64,000 bases of DNA from assembly GCA_050251055.1 (NCBI GenBank), contig JBFWNL010000001.1:651825-715824 (forward strand), read 5' to 3'. Each line of letters starts with the position of its first letter. The stretch's first letter is position 1. Below the pieces are notes generated by a model. That model was not told the DNA's origin. It saw only the letters and a list, made by a program, of their open reading frames with translations, and did no database searches. Source of the DNA: Bacteriovoracia bacterium. Its GTDB lineage: Bacteria; Bdellovibrionota; UBA1018; JBFWNL01. The translations under genes and the position numbers were made by a program. Shown piece by piece: positions 2,023 through 19,600 of the stretch.

Positions 2023-5000
2023 TTAAAGGACCGACTTGCCGTCTTCGTCGGTGACGGTGTCACCGAGGTCGAACTCAAGGGCCGTGCCGGCCTTGACGTC
2101 TTTCTTTTCCTTCTTGAGCTTGGACTCGAGCTCGTCGAAAGCCTTCGTCAGGTTCTTGAACGTCGACACGTAAGCGTCGCCCGTCGTGGCGAACGGACCG
2201 ACGTAGTAGACCTCCTGACGAATCTGACGGATCACCGGCTGGAATTTCACCAAGCTCATGCGGACCGTCTCGTTGTGGACGCTGTTCAAGGCTTCCGTCA
2301 CGAACTTCACGAGCAACGAACGCTGCTTGCGTTTGTCGTCGCGGAAGATGGACTTCTTATCTTCCTTCGACTTCTTCTTGCCTTCGGCAATCCAGTAGTC
2401 ATCCATCGCTTCCTGGTTGAGCATGTGCACCAGCGAACGACCCGTAACTCCCTTCACGGCTTGGTTGCCCGAAGTCAGCGTGCCGATGTAGGCGGCGAGC
2501 GTTTCCTCGAACGACTGCGTGACGAGCGCGAAGGTCGCGATGCGGTTAGCAATGCCCTGCACGGAGCGGTCACGATTGTTCGTATCCACGCCGACCGAGA
2601 ACGGCTTCAGATCGGTCAACTCGCGCGTGCTCGGACGGCTGAGCGCCATGCCTTCCACGGTGCGGGTATTGACCCAATCCGTCGCCTTGACACGGCTGAT
2701 GCCGGCGCCAACTTGCGTTTCGCTTCCGCCGAAGGACAGGTTCGCGTAGAGCTTACCGCCGGCCTTCACGTAGGCTTCGAGCGCGTTACCGAGCTCGGCG
2801 TCCATCGCGCCGGTGACTTCCGGCAGGATGATCATCTTACCCGCGTACTTAGACACGATCGCTTGCTTCGTGACGTTCGTGGGGATCCCCAGATCCAGGA
2901 TATCGAGCGGCATGCCCGACGCCTGAATGATGCGTTCGGCGGAATTCATGAGATCGCGATTCGCGACGATCAGGAGACCCGCAGAACCCGGGTTGTACTC
3001 CCAGGACTTGGTGCTGTTGACCGTGAAGCGGCTGAGACCCAGCAACCAGTTGCCTTCGAAGACCTGGACTTGGAACGAGAGTTCCTTACCCGCGTTCGCC
3101 TTCGGAACCGTGAGGCTCAAGGTGGCGTTACGCACTTCGTTGACGGCGATATTGCCGATGAGCACGTCGTTCTTCACCACGGTCGAAAGACCATCGAGCG
3201 AAACCATGCGGACCATCACCGACTTGGCCGAAGCCTTGTTGCTGACGTTCTTCACGGAAATCGTGGCGGTGGTTTCTTCCTCCGCGGTCACGAGATTCTT
3301 CACCGCGACCTGCGGCACGCTGTACGGGTAGCTCACCGTGAAGCGTAGCTCTTGGTTCATGAGCTGGACGTTGCGGCGGCTAGTGCGGCCATCTTCTTCA
3401 AGCACGGCGATGTTGGCGTCGACCGTGATCTGCAGAGATTGCCGAGAACCGATCGCGACATCTTGCGGAATCTGGAAAGGCAGGAGACCCGTCACCGTGG
3501 AGCGGGACTGGCTCGGGAGCGCGACCAGGTCCGTCTCGGTGGCGTTCATGAGAATGCCGTTCGAGAGCAGCTTGACCCGCACTTTCACCGGTTGGTCCTG
3601 CGAGACTTTGCCGTAGTTTTTCATCACGAGCTGGATCGATCCGGTTTCACCCGGGGCAAACACGGCGTCGCCGTTGTCTTCCACGATGCTCACCGCTTCG
3701 GCTTGCATCACCGCGAAGCCGTTGAAGTAGCTGGTCGCGATATCGGATCCCTTCTGCTTGGCCTTACCCAAGAAGTCGGTGTAGTGATCGCTGTAGCCCT
3801 TCGCAATACCGTCGGCTTTGCCGTCGGCGATCGCTTGGGTGCGACCTTGATTGTAGCCTTCCAGGCTGCCGCCGCTGCCGGTCACGCGGCCTTGGGCATC
3901 CACGGTGACCGAACCCTTACCACGGACAACGGCACCGGGATAAACTTGGCCGTAACGGATGTCACGCACCCGAGCTTCTTCGGCTTGGTAGGCGGCGGAT
4001 TTTTCCGCCGCGTAAATCACCACGCCGGTTTGCGGGTCCTGCACGCGGGCAACCGCGCCTTGGTTACGAACCGCGTTCTGGTACTGCGTGTAATCCGGAG
4101 TGCCTTGGGCATCGTACGTGATCAGGTTCATCCACTGCTCGTAGGACGAGCTCCGGGCCTGTTCAAACACGATCGGGAACGTCGCATTGAACTGGCGCCA
4201 GAAAGCGGTGCGCGCGAACTCTACGAAGTGAAAATCGTACGAGTCGTAGTACGCGTCCGCGACCTCATCGCTAAGGTAGCCGTAGTGGCGAACCGGCTGG
4301 TACTCACCCGCCGAGCGGAAGTCCGGCTCGCCGAAAGCTTGGGAAATCGCGCCGGGAACTTCGGGACCGCCGTCGTTGGCGATGGTCACGTTCTTCAGCG
4401 GAACGTTGTAGAAATCGCGCTCCGTCGCGCGACGACCTTCAGGGATGCCTACGCGGTTCGCTTCGTTCTGGGCGTTCTGCTTGCCGGCTGGGTAGCCTTC
4501 CAGCTGATCGTTGTAGCCTTGGTTATATTCGCCGTACTTGCGGCCATCGGAGCGCCCGATCGGGTACTGCTCATTGCGACCAGAGGTGCGGCCAGCCGCC
4601 TCACCGTCACGGTTCGCTTCGCTCTCGCCGCGATTCCAACCCACGGGGCCGCCTTCGCGGAAGCCGTCGATCTGGCCTTGGGCTTGGTCACGGCCCCAGA
4701 GGGAGCCTTGCTCGCCACCCATCTGGTTGCCGTAGCTGATCCCCCAGCTCGTGCCGACCGCCGCACCGGGAGCCGCGGCATCGTCGCGGCCGAACTGAGC
4801 GGCCAAGCGCTTGGCTTCGCGGATGTTCTCGTTCACTTGGCGAACGTTGGCTTCCGCTTCGTCCGATTCGCGCTTGAGATTCGCCACACCTTCGGCGCTG
4901 CGATCGCGCTGGGCCTTGGCTTCGTCACGCAGCTGCTTCTTGGCGGCGACCTGAATCTCGGCCTGCGTCAACTCCGTGGTCTTCGCTTGCAAGAGGGTCT

Positions 5001-6312
5001 TGAGCTCGACTAGGCGGTTGGCGGCGGTGATCTTATTGTCCAAATCGGTGATGGCCGCGTTCGCCGCGTCCAGCTCGCCTTTGATCTGGTCCACTTCCGT
5101 TTTCTTAGTCTGGAAGGCATTCACCGCGGCAGTTTCCGCGGCCTTCGTGGTTTGCACCGCGGTCTTAGCGGCAGCCACGGCGCTGTTCGCGTTGTTCACC
5201 TTCGTCGTCAGATCAAGCACCGCCTGATTGGCGGCGACGAGCTGCTGTTGAATGGTGGGTAGGGTCTTTTGGATTTCCGCGATGCGCGCGTTCACGCGCT
5301 GGGATTCCTGGTTCAACGTTTGGGCTTGGTGCTGGAGAGCCGCGAGCTTACGCTTAGCGGCGGCGAGCGCCTGCACGAGCGCCGGGTCCGGCTTGGTGGA
5401 ATCCGTCGCCTTGATCTTCTCTTCCAATGCGGCGATTTCCTTCGTCGTGGCGTCTTGCGCTTCTTTATTTTTTTGCATTTCGCCGGGAATAGCCTTCTGG
5501 CGCTCGACCAAGGTCGCTAGCTCCGGCCCCATTTGATTGGCCTGATTTTGAAGCTCGGTCACCTTGGCCTGGGCGGCAGTCAGCTTGCCCTGCAGGTCGG
5601 CGGCCGTCGCCTCCTTCGCGGTCAAGTCATCCTTAGCGGCCTTGGCGGCGGCCACGGCGTTGTCACGCGCGGTCTTAAGCGGCGCAAGCTGTCCGTTCAC
5701 GAGATCGAATTGCCCCTTCTTTTGATCGCGGGCAGAAACCGCGGCGGGACGACCCTGGCGCAAGGCTTGAAGGTGGTTGCGCAAGGCATTCAGCTCGGCC
5801 GGCAAACCTGGGTTTGCTTGGGTCACCGTATTGATCTCGTTCGTCGAGTTCGTGATGGTGGTTTGGATCGCGTCGCGCGCGGCGGTCGCGTTGTTCAGCT
5901 CGTTTTGACGGCGCGTGAGGTCTTGATCCAAGCGAACGAGAGAGTCCTTCGCTTGGTCTAGGCGTTGATTCGCCACCTGGGCGCGACGGCGCGCGCCTTG
6001 CTCGTCGAGATCGTTACGGTCGAAGCGGCGTTGGATCTCGTCTCCATTGCGCATACGATCGTTGCCACCGAAGCGGTCACCGAAACGACGGCCGTTCTCG
6101 GCGCGGTCGCGCTCACGATTCCAGCGATCGCGCTCATTCCGTTCGCCCGGCAGGGGCCCGCGGCGGTCACCCAGACGATCAGCGCCCGGCAGTGGCACGG
6201 GGTGCGCAACCGGAGGTTTGCGACCTGGGCGCGTCGGCGGGTCGGCTAAACCAGCGACCGAGCTAAGCACCATTACTGCACTGAGCACCAAACTGAGCTT
6301 TTTCATTTTCAT
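2023..6312 (-). CDS. Large secreted coiled-coil protein of unknown function (1429 aa)
   Basis: Signal peptide MKMKKLSLVLSAVMVLSSVAGLA, long Ala/Gln/Lys heptad region, GxxxG repeats, beta-rich Ig/CARDB-like segments (EDNGDAVFAPGETGSIQLVMKNYG), and a C-terminal alpha/beta domain. Confidence 0.85.
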   Translation of the reverse strand: MKMKKLSLVLSAVMVLSSVAGLADPPTRPGRKPPVAHPVPLPGADRLGDRRGPLPGERNERDRWNRERDRAENGRRFGDRFGGNDRMRNGDEIQRRFDRNDLDEQGARRRAQVANQRLDQAKDSLVRLDQDLTRRQNELNNATAARDAIQTTITNSTNEINTVTQANPGLPAELNALRNHLQALRQGRPAAVSARDQKKGQFDLVNGQLAPLKTARDNAVAAAKAAKDDLTAKEATAADLQGKLTAAQAKVTELQNQANQMGPELATLVERQKAIPGEMQKNKEAQDATTKEIAALEEKIKATDSTKPDPALVQALAAAKRKLAALQHQAQTLNQESQRVNARIAEIQKTLPTIQQQLVAANQAVLDLTTKVNNANSAVAAAKTAVQTTKAAETAAVNAFQTKKTEVDQIKGELDAANAAITDLDNKITAANRLVELKTLLQAKTTELTQAEIQVAAKKQLRDEAKAQRDRSAEGVANLKRESDEAEANVRQVNENIREAKRLAAQFGRDDAAAPGAAVGTSWGISYGNQMGGEQGSLWGRDQAQGQIDGFREGGPVGWNRGESEANRDGEAAGRTSGRNEQYPIGRSDGRKYGEYNQGYNDQLEGYPAGKQNAQNEANRVGIPEGRRATERDFYNVPLKNVTIANDGGPEVPGAISQAFGEPDFRSAGEYQPVRHYGYLSDEVADAYYDSYDFHFVEFARTAFWRQFNATFPIVFEQARSSSYEQWMNLITYDAQGTPDYTQYQNAVRNQGAVARVQDPQTGVVIYAAEKSAAYQAEEARVRDIRYGQVYPGAVVRGKGSVTVDAQGRVTGSGGSLEGYNQGRTQAIADGKADGIAKGYSDHYTDFLGKAKQKGSDIATSYFNGFAVMQAEAVSIVEDNGDAVFAPGETGSIQLVMKNYGKVSQDQPVKVRVKLLSNGILMNATETDLVALPSQSRSTVTGLLPFQIPQDVAIGSRQSLQITVDANIAVLEEDGRTSRRNVQLMNQELRFTVSYPYSVPQVAVKNLVTAEEETTATISVKNVSNKASAKSVMVRMVSLDGLSTVVKNDVLIGNIAVNEVRNATLSLTVPKANAGKELSFQVQVFEGNWLLGLSRFTVNSTKSWEYNPGSAGLLIVANRDLMNSAERIIQASGMPLDILDLGIPTNVTKQAIVSKYAGKMIILPEVTGAMDAELGNALEAYVKAGGKLYANLSFGGSETQVGAGISRVKATDWVNTRTVEGMALSRPSTRELTDLKPFSVGVDTNNRDRSVQGIANRIATFALVTQSFEETLAAYIGTLTSGNQAVKGVTGRSLVHMLNQEAMDDYWIAEGKKKSKEDKKSIFRDDKRKQRSLLVKFVTEALNSVHNETVRMSLVKFQPVIRQIRQEVYYVGPFATTGDAYVSTFKNLTKAFDELESKLKKEKKDVKAGTALEFDLGDTVTDEDGKSVL

Positions 6313-6566: not shown

Positions 6567-7037
6567 TCAGTGCCTTTTCGGCACCAATTTATCCAACATC
6601 TCATTGAGGACAACCGCCACTTCGCGGAAGTCGTCTTCCTTACGCAGGTGCACGCGCGTGTCCACCTCGCCGTCCCGTACCTTCTCCATGACCTTTTTCA
6701 TCTGGAACATAGGGCCGGCGGTGCGATGAGAAAACAGAAGAGCGACGCTGCACATGAGCACCATGAATACGATTGACCAAATCATCAGCTTCCAACCAAG
6801 CGAGTTTAGATACGCGATGGCGGTGTCCTTAACCTCGTTGGGGAGCGAGCTAATACGCACGAAAGCCTCAAAATCCCGCTGCACGTAAAGGTGAAACACG
6901 CTCGCATTCAAAATGACGAGCACGAGCCCGAGTACGGTCATCCAAAAAATGAATTTCAGCTGGTAACGCGGATTGATCAGTAAATTGCGCACTCGGCGGC
7001 CGGGATGTCTCCCGCCGGCTCTATTTTCTTCGGTCAT
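6567..7037 (-). CDS. Small 2-TM HAMP-domain protein with no output domain
   Basis: RRVRNLLINPRYQLKF, two TM helices, then the HAMP segment SHRTAGP...VHLRKEDDFREVAVVLNEML. Confidence 0.8.
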   Translation of the reverse strand: MTEENRAGGRHPGRRVRNLLINPRYQLKFIFWMTVLGLVLVILNASVFHLYVQRDFEAFVRISSLPNEVKDTAIAYLNSLGWKLMIWSIVFMVLMCSVALLFSHRTAGPMFQMKKVMEKVRDGEVDTRVHLRKEDDFREVAVVLNEMLDKLVPKRH

Positions 7038-7089
7038 TTTCCGTCCCCCCGTATCTCCGTCTCTCGACTCGTCACCCGGGGCGAGGCGC

Positions 7090-8028
7090 TTAGCGCAGGC
7101 CCTTGGTCTTTAAAAACGCGATCAATGCTTCCGGGTCATCGGAAATGATCCCATCCACCCCGGCCGAAAGCAAGTACTCCCACTCGCGGGAGTCATTCGC
7201 CGTCCAAGGGATGACCTGAAGGCCAGCAGCGTGCAGCTCGCCCACCCATTCCCGGGTCACCCAACCCAGATGCGGAGAGATGATTTCAAACCCGGCTTTT
7301 TTGGCGGCGCCGACGACATTAAGCATGAAATTCGCCGCCAAAAGGGCCGAGACCCGTTGCTTCGGGGCCTGTCGTTTCACTTCCACAAGGTAAAGATGAT
7401 TGAAGCATTGCACGACGGTGCGCGAAGCCATGCCGGCGGCGTCGATCTCCTTCAACAGAAGGCGCGTAAACTCCTTGGCCCCTGGATCCAACCCGGGCAG
7501 GGCCGGTACCGTCTTCATTTCTACGTTAAACTGCACCCGCTTGGCCTGGGGCAAGGCCGAGGTTTTCACCAAATCGAAGACCTCCCGAAGGGTCGGAATC
7601 CGCTCTCCGGCGATGCGCTTCTGCCGAGGAAATTTCGGGTTAGGCACGCTACCGCAGTCATACTGCTTCACCTGCTCCAAAGTGAGCGTACGGATCGCAA
7701 TCGGAGCCGCAGGCTTCTGACCGGCGGAGTCCACGCAGAGCTCGGGAGTGATGAACTGTTCGTGCGAGACGACTACCACGCCATCTTTCGTGACGTTGGT
7801 GTCGAGCTCTAAGGTTTCAACTCCGAGTTCAAGCGCGTAACGAAACGCGGCCAAGGTATTTTCCGGCATGACGGCGCGAGCGCCGCGATGGCCCTGCACC
7901 TCGATCTTCCGCGGGGTTGAGCCTTGAACGCTCGCCGGCGCGGCGATCACCACGAACAAGCTGAGGTACCAGTTAAACCGAACGGAGAAAGACCCGCAAA
8001 AAAATCCCTTAAACGCCGTGTAATTCAT
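7090..8028 (-). CDS. Glycerophosphodiester phosphodiesterase (GlpQ/UgpQ family)
   Basis: Motifs GHRGARAVMPENT, ELD, SH, RIPTL, NVEMK, PWTAN and GVDGIISDDP. Start codon uncertain. Confidence 0.92.
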   Translation of the reverse strand: MNYTAFKGFFCGSFSVRFNWYLSLFVVIAAPASVQGSTPRKIEVQGHRGARAVMPENTLAAFRYALELGVETLELDTNVTKDGVVVVSHEQFITPELCVDSAGQKPAAPIAIRTLTLEQVKQYDCGSVPNPKFPRQKRIAGERIPTLREVFDLVKTSALPQAKRVQFNVEMKTVPALPGLDPGAKEFTRLLLKEIDAAGMASRTVVQCFNHLYLVEVKRQAPKQRVSALLAANFMLNVVGAAKKAGFEIISPHLGWVTREWVGELHAAGLQVIPWTANDSREWEYLLSAGVDGIISDDPEALIAFLKTKGLR

Positions 8029-8066
8029 TGGGGGGCAATATGGATGGGGAGGAGAAGGAATTCAAG

Positions 8067-8262
8067 TTAGGAATGAGTGGGGGCCGTGAACTGCTCCTCG
8101 CGTCTCTCGAAAGGCAGACTTGGAATCTCGCGATTCCAAGGGTGGTGGGCTTCAAGCGACCGATTCTTTTGAAGGAACCGGTCGTTAGATGAGGAGTGAA
8201 GAGGTATCGATGGAGGGTGACCTTCCGAAAGACTCTTCACTAGCCTTCCACTCATTCCTGAT
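8067..8262 (-). ncRNA. Candidate structured ncRNA or 5' leader RNA (~195 nt), sigma54-driven, family not recognised
   Basis: Perfect 12-bp closing stem (8069-8080/8248-8259). Internal stems at 8119-8140 (9 bp, GCGA loop on the - strand), 8157-8184, 8094-8099/8191-8196 and 8195-8203/8233-8241. The upstream sigma54 box predicts +1 at ~8262. Confidence 0.6.
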
Positions 8263-8266
8263 CCCT

Positions 8267-8289
8267 CACTAGAGCAGGCGGGGTGCCAA
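8267..8289 (-). promoter_or_regulatory. sigma54 (-24/-12) promoter
   Basis: Minus strand reads TTGGCACCCCGCCTGCT-CTAGTG, with canonical GG-N10-GC spacing. Confidence 0.7.
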
Positions 8290-8370
8290 CTCCGCCAATT
8301 GGAGAAACAAGCACTTAGCCGGGGCACGGAAACCAGGCACCGGGGTCGAGGGCGACACATTCACGCGGAA

Positions 8371-8404
8371 AGGCCGCACCCGGTTTTCACGCCCGGTGCG
8401 GCCT
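8371..8404 (-). terminator. Hairpin, probable terminator of the 8433-9326 gene
   Basis: AGGCCGCACC/GGTGCGGCCT 10-bp inverted repeat about 30 nt after the stop codon; only a short U tract. Confidence 0.55.
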
Positions 8405-8432
8405 CCTTATAATACCCCTCTTTTTCTCAAGC

Positions 8433-9326
8433 CTAGTAGCAGTACCCTCCCGCCCGCAGATTATTCATCTTGTTCAAGGCGTTCGTGAGGTTATCATCGG
8501 CGTCGACGATTTCATTGCCGATGGCGATTCGGTTATTCCATGAGTATCCGCGATAAGCGCCGCCCCCTAAGAGCTGGCAGGCACCGCGAGCTTGCACGCG
8601 GCAGACTCCGGCCTGTTCTAGCTTACCGACGATCGATTCGATGGAGCTCATCGAATCGGCGGCAGCGACCTGCGCCCCGCCCACGCTCACGCGGAAGTTG
8701 TAGTTGTAGCTGCCGTGCGTACCGACGCCCGAGAGCGTACAGGCTTCGACAACCGTCGTGCAAACCCGCGCGGCTTCCAAATCACGCAGCTTGCTGAGCG
8801 CGGTGTCGAGGCTGTCCGCAGCGGCTAACGACGACCCATTCACGAGAATACGGTAGTTGTAATTGTACCCATTGTGAACGCCAGGACCCACTAGCTCGCA
8901 TTGGTTCACGCGAGGAGGATACGGGCCAGGCGAAGGCGGATATGGTCCGGGGATAGGGGGAGTCGGGCCATAGTTGTCCAACTCCGCCTGGGCCTCTCTC
9001 AGTAAATCTTGGATGCGGGCCGATTGGGCTCCGCTTAGGCGGTGACCGCGCTGGCGTAGATCGCGCGCCAAATCTTCGGCTTTGGCCGCCAAGGCTTGGG
9101 CCGGCCCACCCGAAGGCGGTAGGTGCGGCACCGGACGACCGGGGTTGCCGGGGCCCGAGCCGGGGTAACCCGGAGTCGTGACGGGAGGGCGTCCGATCCA
9201 ACCACTCACCGGAGGATCCGCCAAGGCCAGCTGAGAAACCCCCGAAGCGACCATCACGGCGCCCGCGACGATGGCTTTCGTTGAGATTCCCCAGGCATTT
9301 TTCCTCGAAAAGATAGACGTGTTCAT
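8433..9326 (-). CDS. Secreted Pro-rich protein with three Cys-bounded ~53-aa repeats
   Basis: GGAGG SD before ATG 9326; signal peptide ending ALA|DPP; three C-x-L-x-G-x-G...R-[IV]...AxD...[VY]C repeats. Confidence 0.8.
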   Translation of the reverse strand: MNTSIFSRKNAWGISTKAIVAGAVMVASGVSQLALADPPVSGWIGRPPVTTPGYPGSGPGNPGRPVPHLPPSGGPAQALAAKAEDLARDLRQRGHRLSGAQSARIQDLLREAQAELDNYGPTPPIPGPYPPSPGPYPPRVNQCELVGPGVHNGYNYNYRILVNGSSLAAADSLDTALSKLRDLEAARVCTTVVEACTLSGVGTHGSYNYNFRVSVGGAQVAAADSMSSIESIVGKLEQAGVCRVQARGACQLLGGGAYRGYSWNNRIAIGNEIVDADDNLTNALNKMNNLRAGGYCY

Positions 9327-9406
9327 TGGATAGTCCTCCACTCTTGATTCAGTTTGTTTTTGATTTCACACTCGCGGATTTCAGGTCCGCCCTAACTCCG
9401 GACCGG

Positions 9407-9429
9407 CACTAGTGCAACGGCGGTGCCAA
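9407..9429 (-). promoter_or_regulatory. sigma54 (-24/-12) promoter
   Basis: Minus strand reads TTGGCACCGCCGTTGCA-CTAGTG, a near-perfect consensus. Confidence 0.8.
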
Positions 9430-16626: not shown

Positions 16627-19600
16627 TGCTTCCATGCTTTGCAGCTCCCCTCCAGGTGCATGACCGCGCTTTTCTCGAAGCCGCCGGCATCTCCGTCCAG
16701 GCGCTTTAACGCCGACAAACATTCCCCGGCGTACTCGGCAACCTGCTCCGGATTCTTACTCACCGCCGCGCGCTCGGCTTGCGCCGCCGCCTCATGATAA
16801 GCTTGCGCAAACCGCCCTTTCTCCGCGCCCGCGTCGCGCGCCTTGCCTAAATAGGCCTGCGCGGTCTCGACGTCTCCCGTTCCGAAATGAACGGTCGCCA
16901 ATCCATCGTAAATCCAAGGCGCATCCGCGCCACGCCCCTTCGTCTTGGCGTGGATCTGCTGCCAAAGCGGTTTCGCTTTTCGAAATAGACGGTAGTAGTT
17001 CATCAAGCTCGCAAGATTGAGCTTAGCGGCGTCATGATAGTGGTCACCCTTCAACGCCTGCTTGAAAAGGTAGCTCGCCCGGGCCGCGCGTAGCCAGTCT
17101 TCGGGGCCTTCGCCGCCCAGAAGCACCACGCCCTGATTGTTGAACGCGGCGACATTGCGGGGCTCCAGCTCTAAAGCGCGCGCATAAGCTACGTCGGCCA
17201 ACAGCGGTTTGCCCGAGCCCATCAACACGTTGCCGTATTCAATCCAAGCCGCGGCGTCCTTCGGATTGTGCATCAACTTCTTGCGCACGCCCTCGGCGCT
17301 ATCGCCAGCGGCACCCGCCAAGCGGTAACGTCCCCGGGCGCCCTGCGCGCGATGTGGGGGACGGACTCCCAAGTCGGCCAGCTCATCCACGGTCTCGGGC
17401 ACCGCGGGGCTGTAGATCTCCGCCTCCACGGCCTTCTGGTAAGCCTGTGACCAGGTCTCGGCGGCTTTCTTGCGTAGCGGGTTACTCACATCAAAGAGCG
17501 ACTTGCGAAACTTTTCGATCGCCTTGGGCTGAGAGCCATCGGGAGGCTGGATACGATCCACCTCGGACGCGAACGTGTTCGTCCACTTCGCGAGCCGATA
17601 GAGCGAAGCAATTGCCCAAGGCCCGCCCACGTCGAGCGCGGCGAGGTAAGCCTTACTCAAACGCTCGAAAAACGAAAGCCGCTCGGTAAGGGCTTTCTGC
17701 AGGGCCGTCTCCGGTAGCACCAACGGGCTGAACTTGGTTTCTTCTTCAAGGATCTCCGCGATCCGGTAGCGGGCGTAACCGATAAAAGGAGAACGCCCCT
17801 CGCCCGCCCGCCCCGGCAGGGTCGAAACGCCTTGAAAGGAGGCGATCGCCCGCCGCGGATCCTTTAGGCGTGCCTGTAGGTCGCCCATGCGGGAGCCGCA
17901 CTCGGCCCGAAACTCCACCGGCACCACTTTGCCCTGGGCGCAACTCGCGTAAGCGCGTTCGGCCTCGCTTTCCTTGCCTTGGCGCTCAAAGGCGCGCCCC
18001 ATCTGCAAAAGGGTGGCCCACCGGTCGGTGCCGTTCTTATATATTTTCAAGGCGTCGTCGCGTGCGGCCTGGGCCTTGGAAACTTCTTCGGTGCCCTCAT
18101 AAATCCGCACCGCGGTCTCGAGCGACGCGGCGTCCGTGCCCTGCCGACCTAGGCGTCGAAACAACGCCGCCGAAGGGCTAAAATAGCCTTGGATCAGCAG
18201 CGACGTTGCCGTGCCCTTGGCCTCGGCGTATGCCGCGCGGCTGTTCGGATACTTATCCAGCCATTGATTCGCCAGTCGATCCATCGCGTCCCAGTCGCCG
18301 GACTTGGCGAAGGAACCCAAGGCGTTCGTGTAGGCTTTCTCCGAAAGGTCCGTGGATCCGGCGTTAGCCGCAAAAGTTTCGTAGGCCTTGCCAGCCGAGG
18401 CAAAGTCTTTTTCCTTTTCGTAGACGGCGATCTCGCCCACCCGGAGGCGGTGTTCGAGGTCGTCGATCTGTTTCTTCAGATGCCCGGAGTTTTCGCGCGC
18501 GTCGTAATCCATCAGGGCGCGGTTGCCCCGGATCTCTTGGTTCACTTCCGCCAGCTCGTGGGCCGCCGCGACGTAGCGTTTGGTTTCAGCCTGTTTGGGA
18601 TCGGGCAGGCGATCCGCCGCGACCTGCAGCCAAAGCTTGGCGGCCACGATCGCTTGCTTGGTAGACGGCGCATCTTTGACGATTTTGCGGGCGCGGCTTA
18701 CCGCCGAATCCTGCGTATCTTTATAGTCAGCCAGAAACTGCGCCGACTGCAGAGCCGCCGCGCGCGCTTCCGGAGAGCCCGGCAGGATATCCTGCAGCTC
18801 ATCGGAAGCCTCTACGAAGGTTTTCTCCAGTTCCGTCGGCTTCTCCGATCGCGCGCTCTTCGATTTTGGATTCGCTTTCGCGTATTTCTGAATAGCGTCG
18901 GAGAGCGTGCCCACCCAGAGCGCGGCCGCCTCCTTGGTATAACGCGGATCCTTCGACTTCACGACCTCGTGGTAGTAACCGGTCGATTGCTCGGGCTTAC
19001 CCAGCTCGCGCTTCACCTCGGCAACGTACATTTGAACTTCCGGCGTCTCGCGTCTCGGATCATCGCGCTTGAGAAAGTAGCCCAGATAAGCCTCGTAGTA
19101 AGCTTCGGCGATCTTCAATGAATCGCGGTCCGCCTTCTTCCGAAACTCCTCATGGTGCTCCGTCGCCGTCCGACGTACCATCGCCCGCAAATTCTGAAGG
19201 GCGGCGGAGGTGTCGTCGTCGCCTAGGCTGGGGATGTCGAGCTTACGGATCCGCTCGAGCGCGGGATTATAGCGTTTGCGGCGCAGATCCAAGTCCACGA
19301 GCTTCACGCTAACGCGAAAATGGGTGGCGGAATTGGGGTTCGTGCGCAGGAGGGATTCGTAAACGATCGCGGCCTTATCCGGTTGCACGCGCCGCTCGAA
19401 CTCCCGCCCTAAGCGCTCGAGCGTCTTGGGAAAGTAGGATTTGTCCCCCGCGACCTTTTGAAAGTAGGCGATCGCCTCCTCAACCTGGCCTTGCTCGGTC
19501 ATGAAGATGGCCATGTCGCGCAGGGCTTCTTCGCGGATGCTCAAGAACTTCTCTTCCGACGTCGAAGCTTGCGCCACGGCACGCTTCATCGTCTCCACCG

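What the first reader, a model, noticed from the sequence alone, without database searches (positions are those of the whole stretch)
8067..8289. Candidate novel sigma54-transcribed structured RNA (~195 nt)
Seen: the intergenic region between the GDPD gene and the repeat-protein gene folds extensively. A perfect 12-bp stem (AGGAATGAGTGG/CCACTCATTCCT) joins the two ends and can extend through GGC/GCC and GTGAA/TTCAC. It encloses a 9-bp hairpin with a GNRA-type GCGA loop (8119-8140, - strand), a 10-bp hairpin with one G-U pair (8157-8184), a CTCCTC/GAGGAG stem, and a 9-bp stem (8195-8203/8233-8241). The segment 8236-8240 can pair either locally or with 8086-8090, giving two mutually exclusive folds. 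A sigma54 box at 8273-8288 predicts +1 at ~8262, three nt before the closing stem, and a hairpin at 8371-8404 separates it from the upstream gene. A C/U-rich anti-SD-like tract (CCUUCUCCUCCCC) follows the 3' end. Known: sigma54-driven sRNAs exist (Pxr, Qrr, CrcZ, GlmY), but I see no signature of these or of tmRNA, RNase P or SRP. Inference: a new sRNA, or a switchable 5' leader of the downstream GDPD gene.
Basis: partly seen in the sequence, partly recalled or inferred. Interest (0 to 1): 0.8.

Follow-up and report, generated by a model that had tools for sequence, protein, structure and literature searches.

The report
Orphan structured leader behind sigma54 promoter
A 191-base stretch in front of a phosphodiesterase gene is predicted to fold into a tight multi-hairpin RNA right after a credible sigma54 promoter, but it occurs only in this one genome, so whether it has a function could not be tested.

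Summary
It is a 12-bp perfect closing stem around four hairpins. It folds better than all 200 shuffles on both strands (z -4.73 minus, -5.04 plus). The sigma54 box (8273-8288, minus) is credible. The genome has rpoN and 19 strong activator genes, and the box fits the local consensus YTGGCACCCCGCTTGCTCTA at every informative position but one. Rfam gave no match, and the genome's 6S RNA lies elsewhere. The element is single-copy.

No homologue was found in 115 order genomes, 400 phylum genomes, plasmids, phages or viral contigs. None of 24 fetched orthologous GDPD loci has a matching leader. Covariation therefore could not be tested, and no RNA data exist.

Among this genome's own intergenic regions the fold is notable but not extreme: 59 to 96 of 3960 windows fold better.

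My best reading is a lineage-specific structured 5' leader of the GDPD mRNA (0.45), because only 40 nt and no terminator separate it from the start codon. The rivals are a free sRNA (0.2) and a functionless palindromic relic (0.28). Interest is low to moderate.

The parts
8273..8288 (-). Sigma54-type promoter box TGGCAC-N5-CTGCT (GG at 8287-8286, GC at 8275-8274)
   Evidence: Sequence. It is one of 39 TGGCAC-N5-NTGC sites in the genome, and 4 of the 6 CTGC variants are intergenic although only about 8% of the genome is. It fits the local consensus YTGGCACCCCGCTTGCTCTA at all but one position.
8261..8263 (-). Predicted transcription start, about 12 nt after the C of the -12 GC. Inferred, not measured.
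   Evidence: Inference from the usual spacing of sigma54 promoters (established knowledge) applied to the sequence.
8069..8259 (-). The structured element (191 nt): closing stem P1 8069-8080/8248-8259 plus 4 bp 8082-8085/8242-8245
   Evidence: P1 pair probability is 0.99. The fold z-score is -4.73.
8195..8241 (-). P2: 9-bp stem 8195-8203/8233-8241 with a weakly paired tip (8207-8228)
   Evidence: P 0.61, I6.
8157..8184 (-). P3: 10-bp hairpin with one G-U pair and an 8-nt loop
   Evidence: P 0.99.
8119..8140 (-). P4: 9-bp perfect hairpin. The loop is GCGA (GNRA type) on the minus strand only.
   Evidence: P 0.99, I5.
8091..8117 (-). P5: weak hairpin (4 + 5 bp) that contains GAGGAG
   Evidence: P 0.36-0.45.
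8086..8090 (-). GTGAA (plus-strand letters), the alternative partner of 8236-8240. In that fold a 14-bp helix also forms between RNA positions 30-43 and 147-160.
   Evidence: -79.7 against -80.1 kcal/mol; pair probability 0.27-0.38.
8029..8068 (-). Linker to the start codon: C-rich and G-poor (18 C, 2 G of 40 nt). It holds the anti-SD-like tract 8046-8058.
8002..8063 (-). Predicted hairpin around the start codon: 9-bp stem 8055-8063/8002-8010 and inner 5 bp 8036-8040/8026-8030 that cover the AUG at 8026-8028
   Evidence: unpaired probability 0.0-0.3 in the stems.
7090..8028 (-). Downstream gene: glycerophosphodiester phosphodiesterase (312 aa). No SD-like motif in front of its start codon.
   Evidence: PF03009, E 6.4e-39; sequence.
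8371..8404 (-). Hairpin after the upstream gene (13-nt arms, 92% complementary), followed by only three U
   Evidence: I3. It is not scored as a terminator.
8433..9341 (-). Upstream gene P0002 (302 aa, no family), which has its own sigma54 box at 9413-9428

Best explanation
The element is the 5' end of the GDPD mRNA. RNA polymerase carrying sigma54 starts at about 8262 on the minus strand. The first 191 nt fold into a compact domain: a 12-bp closing stem that begins 3 nt after the start, enclosing four hairpins. A 40-nt C-rich, G-poor linker then leads straight into the GDPD start codon. Shown here: the fold prediction, the promoter match, the gene order, and the absence of a terminator-like site. 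Inferred: the domain acts in cis. It most likely shields the 5' end from decay. Together with the linker and the small hairpin over the AUG, it may also set how much full-length, translatable mRNA is made. It arose in this lineage only.
For: - Fold z-score of -4.73 on the minus strand, with 0 of 200 shuffles as good.
- The element keeps its fold when the whole leader plus 60 nt of coding sequence is folded.
- The sigma54 machinery is present: rpoN and 19 strong activator genes.
- The box fits the local consensus built from 16 intergenic sites at all but one informative position, including the T before TGGCAC and TCTA after the GC.
- CTGC variants are intergenic in 4 of 6 cases, while about 92% of the genome is called coding.
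- No sigma70-like promoter on the minus strand and no terminator-like site were found in 7900-8600. This box is therefore the only candidate promoter for GDPD, and transcription should run on into the gene.
- The closing stem begins 3 nt after the predicted start (sequence).
- The GNRA loop exists only on the minus strand.
- ORFs across the element show no coding signal.
Against: - No homologue was found, so selection on the structure is untested.
- Of 24 GDPD orthologue loci in relatives, none has a TGGCAC-type box. Two have only weak 9-of-11 matches about 400 nt upstream.
- 13 of the 20 loci with a visible upstream ORF leave at most 50 nt of gap. The 6 with gaps of 100 nt or more fold no better than shuffles (z from -0.66 to +1.10).
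- The plus strand folds as well or better (-91.9 against -80.6 kcal/mol). This fits DNA-level palindromes as much as an RNA.
- The stems are almost all perfect Watson-Crick pairs, as in young repeats.
- The -12 element is CTGC, not TTGC.
- I found no shared upstream activator site with the neighbouring sigma54 promoter.
- In the genome background the fold is only in about the top 1.5-2.5% of windows.
Confidence: 0.45

Rival explanations
1. It is a free sigma54-dependent small RNA of about 195-235 nt. The RNA ends by Rho-dependent termination or by processing in the C-rich, G-poor linker. Its C/U-rich tail could pair with Shine-Dalgarno sequences of other mRNAs. GDPD would then be made by read-through or from a weak promoter of its own.
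For: - The linker has 18 C and 2 G in 40 nt. That composition is typical of Rho loading sites (established knowledge).
- Two other sigma54 sites in this genome have leaders over 200 nt with C-rich tracts followed by strong GC hairpins (C1:648196 and C1:579149). The second lies next to an activator gene, as sRNA genes such as those for Qrr and GlmY do (recalled).
- A weak sigma70-like pair, TTGAAT-17-CATATT at 8065-8037, would start GDPD near its AUG (my reading; 8 of 12 matches).
Against: - No intrinsic terminator was found.
- Only 40 nt lie before the AUG.
- The sigma70-like match is below the scanner's threshold.
- The nearest activator domain found is at C1:649655-650158, about 10 kb from the box at C1:660112.
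- There is no transcript evidence.
Confidence: 0.2
2. It is a set of palindromes without RNA function. One origin would be the relic of a small mobile element with 12-bp terminal inverted repeats; another would be local duplication and inversion. It happens to lie between promoter and gene and is simply carried in the leader.
For: - Both strands fold equally well.
- The stems are nearly all perfect.
- The element is confined to one genome.
- The orthologous loci lack it.
- The same genome holds about 25 copies of another palindromic family, so palindrome-making processes are active here.
Against: - It is single-copy. The only other exact copy of the 12-mer, at C7:124341, has no inverted partner within 5 kb.
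- I see no target-site duplication.
- There is no match in plasmids, phages or viral contigs.
- Four different nested palindromes that together form one consistent branched fold, starting 3 nt after a predicted start site, are not what a simple relic predicts.
Confidence: 0.28
3. The palindromes are DNA operators for dimeric transcription factors that block or tune transcription after the promoter.
For: The 22-bp and 28-bp inverted repeats (8119-8140 and 8157-8184) have the size of operators.
Against: - Operators do not explain a 12-bp repeat whose arms are 167 nt apart, nor the nesting of all four repeats.
- No regulator gene lies beside them.
- The arm sequences are not markedly enriched elsewhere in the genome. 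The two most enriched are at about twice expectation (45 found against 21.8 expected, and 19 against 8.7).
Confidence: 0.04
4. It encodes a small protein: 62 aa on the minus strand from the AUG at 8255, or 39 aa on the plus strand from 8073.
For: One frame is open across the whole element on the minus strand.
Against: - The codon-usage score of the minus-strand ORF is -0.198 per codon. That is below the 5th percentile (0.015) of 288 real-gene chunks.
- Its GC3 is 0.54, against 0.68-0.77 in neighbouring genes. The plus-strand ORF scores 0.034.
- No Pfam family and no homologue were found.
Confidence: 0.03

Closest known systems
Sigma54-dependent small RNAs (GlmY/GlmZ, Qrr1, NrsZ, and an RpoN-dependent sRNA of Campylobacter jejuni). 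Seen only as search listings and starts of abstracts: PMC3045617, PMC10162802, PMC4253122, PMC11187230.
   Same: A sigma54-type promoter directly in front of a multi-hairpin RNA of roughly 150-250 nt.
   Different: No Rfam family matches, even at E up to 10. No terminator follows the element. It abuts a coding gene. No activator domain was found closer than about 10 kb. It is not conserved beyond one genome.
5'-terminal stabilising stem-loops of bacterial mRNAs, such as the ompA leader (recalled, not looked up)
   Same: A strong helix that starts within a few nucleotides of the 5' end of an mRNA, followed by an unstructured stretch and the start codon.
   Different: This one is far larger and branched (five helices, 191 nt). 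An effect on stability is inferred only.
Riboswitch or leader control of Rho-dependent termination, as in the mgtA and corA leaders (recalled, not looked up)
   Same: A long structured leader with alternative folds, followed by a C-rich, G-poor stretch in front of the gene.
   Different: The two predicted folds do not change the pairing of the C-rich stretch. The domain is not conserved upstream of orthologous genes. No ligand is suggested.
MITEs (miniature inverted-repeat transposable elements)
   Same: About 190 bp bounded by perfect 12-bp inverted repeats, and foldable on both strands.
   Different: One copy only. I see no target-site duplication. No relatives in 400 phylum genomes, plasmids, phages or viral contigs.
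6S RNA (RF00013)
   Same: Similar length, and a long helix joining the two ends.
   Different: There is no 6S match at this place. The genome's 6S scores 67.4 bits at C4:170863-171033. The fold here is branched, not a rod with a central bubble.

Membership tests
Any Rfam 15 family (including 6S, GlmY/GlmZ, Qrr, CrcZ, Pxr, tmRNA, RNase P, SRP) | A covariance-model score at or above the family's gathering score | tested here: not met
   There were 0 matches at gathering score in the whole window. In 7900-8500 at E up to 10 there were only 5 chance-level hits, the best being 19.6 bits against a gathering score of 44.
6S RNA | It would be the genome's copy of the 6S model | tested here: not met
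   The only RF00013 match in the genome is at C4:170863-171033 (67.4 bits).
Sigma54 promoter | GG and GC dinucleotides spaced as in TGGCAC-N5-TTGCW | tested here: met
   TGGCAC-N5-CTGCT at 8288-8273 has one departure, C for the first T of TTGC. It fits the local extended consensus.
Sigma54 promoter | The organism has sigma54 and enhancer-binding activators | tested here: met
   rpoN at C10:43613-44092. There were 24 PF00158 matches, 19 of them with E below 1e-40.
Sigma54 promoter | An upstream activator binding site, and transcription that depends on sigma54 | not testable with these tools
   I recognised no shared upstream motif with the neighbouring sigma54 promoter. No RNA data exist.
MITE | Many dispersed copies in the genome | tested here: not met
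   One copy was found by BLAST, by blastn with 7-nt words and by nhmmer.
MITE | Terminal inverted repeats | tested here: met
   12 nt, 100% complementary (I2).
MITE | Target-site duplication flanking the repeats | tested here: not met
   The flanks ...CAAGTT and GATCCC... share no direct repeat.
Riboswitch or conserved cis-regulatory leader | The same structured domain recurs upstream of orthologous genes in other taxa | tested here: not met
   In 24 GDPD orthologue loci there was no full-length model match, no TGGCAC-type box and no unusually stable upstream region.
Structured functional RNA in general | Base pairs kept through compensatory changes | not testable with these tools
   No second sequence was found. 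The only sequencing runs that hold the locus are identical to it.
Retron non-coding RNA | A reverse-transcriptase gene directly downstream | tested here: not met
   The downstream genes are GDPD, a HAMP-domain protein and a coiled-coil protein.

The most novel reading that the evidence does not exclude
The 191-nt domain is a new, self-contained sensory RNA at the very 5' end of a sigma54 transcript. It toggles between two near-isoenergetic folds when a ligand or protein binds. Through the adjoining C-rich, G-poor stretch it decides whether Rho ends the transcript, releasing a roughly 200-nt RNA with an anti-Shine-Dalgarno tail, or the polymerase reads on into the GDPD operon. One locus would then yield both a trans-acting sRNA and a regulated mRNA.
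Probability: 0.1. Interest if true: 0.6.

Novelty: new member of a known kind. Interest (0 to 1): 0.3.

Why it matters
If real, this would be a sigma54-driven structured leader or sRNA in a poorly studied lineage. The genome is the only one of its family among the species representatives searched. It would also link sigma54 control to glycerophosphodiester use. As it stands, it is a single unconserved candidate with no expression data, so it adds little beyond a testable locus. The most useful results are negative: it is not a known RNA family, not 6S and not a dispersed repeat. The sigma54 promoter call is well founded for this genome.

Tried and rejected
Searches for relatives of the element:
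- DNA search of 60 same-order genomes: 0 matches.
- DNA search of 400 phylum genomes: 34 had only scattered 18-38 nt pieces, best E 0.0045.
- A single-sequence covariance model R1 was run over 115 other order genomes and then 126 other class genomes. It hit 3 genomes of one genus.
  - The G092 hit lies inside a long ORF of about 620 aa that reads like a DNA primase. That label is my reading of the translation and was not tested.
  - The G094 match is the same coding stretch, with differences that look like third-codon-position changes (my reading, ORFs not listed).
  - The G090 match is only 57 nt, and I did not check it for ORFs.
  - A second hit in the window's own genome (window 19356-19505) lies inside the 1232-aa TPR-protein ORF.
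  - I rejected the G092, G094 and own-genome hits as spurious and set the short G090 match aside.
- Metagenome and genome-contig scans with the GDPD protein returned only 34-50% identical relatives. Model R1 found nothing convincing in them.
- Plasmids, phages and viral contigs: no match.
- Translated ORF P0001: no homologue in proteins of 53-170 residues; longer or shorter forms were not searched.

Other lines that led nowhere:
- Sequencing runs: no RNA holder was listed. Two landfill-metagenome DNA runs hold the stretch whole, are identical to it and may be its source. One bioreactor-sludge run holds only 7051-7259. No variants were seen over the element.
- The upstream gene P0002 has homologues in 3 of 115 order genomes. 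The two I examined (G097, G102) have no sigma54 box and a downstream ORF within about 100 nt.
- Lack of an SD in front of GDPD is not a signal, because only 24-31% of crude gene starts show one.
- I could not name the organism with the tools available.

Full report
**What is there.** The stretch between a GDPD gene (7090-8028, minus; PF03009, E 6.4e-39) and a family-less 302-aa gene (8433-9341, minus) holds a 191-nt element at 8069-8259.
- A perfect 12-bp inverted repeat joins its ends, 8069-8080 with 8248-8259.
- On the minus strand the predicted fold has that closing stem plus 4 more pairs.
- It encloses P2 (9 bp, 8195-8203/8233-8241), P3 (10 bp with one G-U, 8157-8184), P4 (9 bp with a GCGA loop, 8119-8140) and a weak P5 (8091-8117).
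- Pair probabilities are 0.99 for P1, P3 and P4, 0.61 for P2 and 0.36-0.45 for P5.

**Is it more than chance?**
- Against dinucleotide shuffles the answer is yes: z is -4.73 on the minus strand and -5.04 on the plus strand, with 0 of 200 shuffles as stable on either.
- Against the genome's own non-coding DNA the picture is more modest. I folded 3960 strand-windows of 190 nt taken from 529 long intergenic runs. The exactly bounded element had 59 (plus) or 96 (minus) windows that fold better after correction for G+C.
- The best unoptimised tile over it is 47th of the 53 loci with z below -2.0.
- Many of the better-folding loci are tRNA genes or an unrelated palindromic family.

**Promoter.**
- TGGCACCCCGCCTGCT lies at 8288-8273 on the minus strand.
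- The genome has rpoN and 24 matches to the sigma54-activator domain, 19 of them strong.
- There are 39 TGGCAC-N5-NTGC sites genome-wide. Sites fully outside the crude gene calls, which cover about 92% of the genome, number 14 of 24 for TTGC, 4 of 6 for CTGC and 1 of 8 for ATGC.
- Sixteen intergenic sites give the local consensus YTGGCACCCCGCTTGCTCTA. This box matches it at every informative position except the first T of TTGC.
- A second such box, at 9413-9428, lies 72 nt before the upstream gene.
- The predicted start, about 8262, is 3 nt before the closing stem. That is an inference from promoter geometry.
- No sigma70-like site on the minus strand and no terminator-like site were found in 7900-8600.

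**What it is not.**
- It matches no Rfam family.
- It is not 6S, which is at C4:170863-171033.
- It is not repeated in the genome.
- It is not coding. The 62-codon minus-strand frame scores -0.198 per codon, below the 5th percentile of real-gene chunks. The 97-aa ORF over it has no family and no homologue.

**Search for relatives.** The genome is the only one of its family among the species representatives held.
- DNA searches of 60 order genomes and 400 phylum genomes found nothing beyond 18-38 nt pieces.
- A covariance model built from the single sequence hit three genomes of one genus. The G092 hit lies inside a long ORF that reads like a primase, and the G094 hit is the same coding stretch. 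The G090 hit is a 57-nt fragment that I did not check for ORFs. A further hit lies inside a TPR-protein ORF of the window's own genome.
- GDPD orthologues (40-49% identical) exist in 28 of 115 other order genomes, and I fetched 24 of those loci.
  - None has a full-length model match.
  - None has a TGGCAC-type box within the upstream sequence available. That was under 450 nt for four loci, and two loci have only weak 9-of-11 matches about 400 nt upstream.
  - 13 of the 20 loci with a visible upstream ORF leave at most 50 nt of gap.
  - The 6 loci with gaps of 100 nt or more fold like shuffled sequence (z from -0.66 to +1.10).
- The upstream gene has homologues in 3 of 115 genomes, and the two I examined have no sigma54 box and a downstream ORF within about 100 nt.
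- Plasmids, phages and viral contigs gave nothing.
- So the element, and the whole promoter-leader-gene arrangement, is specific to this lineage as far as the data reach. Covariation cannot be tested.

**How it most likely works.** Only 40 nt lie between the element and the GDPD AUG. This linker is 18 C and 2 G and has no terminator, so a transcript from the sigma54 box should carry the element as its 5' end and continue into GDPD.
- When the whole leader plus 60 nt of coding sequence is folded, the element is unchanged. A separate 9-bp stem (8055-8063/8002-8010), with an inner 5-bp stem, covers the AUG.
- I therefore read the element as a cis-acting 5' domain. Protection of the 5' end is the simplest function.
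- Control of read-through at the C-rich stretch, which looks like a Rho loading site (established knowledge), or of start-codon access is possible but only inferred.
- The predicted bistability does not by itself make a switch, because both folds keep P1, P3 and P4 and leave the linker alone.

**Against this reading, and the rivals.**
- The plus strand folds at least as well, and the stems are nearly all perfect Watson-Crick pairs. Nothing is conserved. That fits a young palindromic relic with no RNA function (0.28).
- A free sRNA ending in the linker (0.2) is suggested by two other long sigma54 leaders in the genome that carry C-rich tracts and strong terminal hairpins. Here, however, no terminator follows.
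- Operators (0.04) and a small protein (0.03) are unlikely.

**Comparison with known systems.**
- It works most like a structured 5' leader, or a sigma54-dependent sRNA of the GlmY/GlmZ, Qrr or NrsZ kind. I saw those papers only as listings and starts of abstracts.
- It fails the membership test for every curated RNA family.
- For a MITE it meets only the inverted-repeat criterion.

**Verdict.** This is a plausible but unverified lineage-specific leader, a new member of a known kind. Interest is 0.3.

Noticed in passing
Own genome outside the window, e.g. G000 C8:42321-42525, C9:105961-106193, C4:265376-265530, C4:84339-84533, C1:126359-126586, C2:410845-411080: A family found with a 17-nt degenerate motif (27 hits, up to 2 mismatches). 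A conserved core of about 60 nt is enclosed, in many copies, by very long near-perfect inverted repeats of tens of base pairs that differ between copies. MFE reaches -177 kcal/mol. About 15 of the 27 lie just 3' of a tRNA gene, on its opposite strand. At E <= 0.001 the core found only 23-nt pieces in 2 of 115 other order genomes. Its only Rfam hint is a sub-threshold TwoAYGGAY match of 36 bits against a gathering score of 43. None lies in the window.
   Followed up: partly
window 9413-9428 (minus): A second sigma54-type box (TGGCAC-N5-TTGCA) lies 72 nt upstream of the 302-aa gene 8433-9341. That gene has a hydrophobic N-terminal stretch, Pro-rich stretches and three similar Cys-containing segments, but no Pfam or NCBIfam family.
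   Followed up: partly
G000 C1:579149 (+) and C1:648196 (+), both outside the window: Two further sigma54 boxes are followed by leaders over 200 nt. Each has a hairpin, C-rich tracts and a strong GC hairpin, and they look like sRNA candidates. The first lies close to an activator domain at C1:577900-578385 (minus strand). The second lies about 1.5 kb from another at C1:649655-650158. Neither has an Rfam match.
   Followed up: partly
G000 C4:170863-171033 (minus): The genome's 6S RNA, at 67.4 bits against a gathering score of 46.4.
   Followed up: yes
G000 C7:124341 (+): A 16-nt exact match to the 5' arm of the element and the four bases after it (AGGAATGAGTGGAAGG), with no inverted partner within 5 kb. 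I take it as chance.
   Followed up: yes
window 6567-7037 and 2023-6312 (minus): Downstream of GDPD on the same strand lie a 156-aa protein with a HAMP domain but no kinase part, and a 1429-aa protein with only weak SMC/Rad50-like coiled-coil matches. They may form one operon with GDPD.
   Followed up: no
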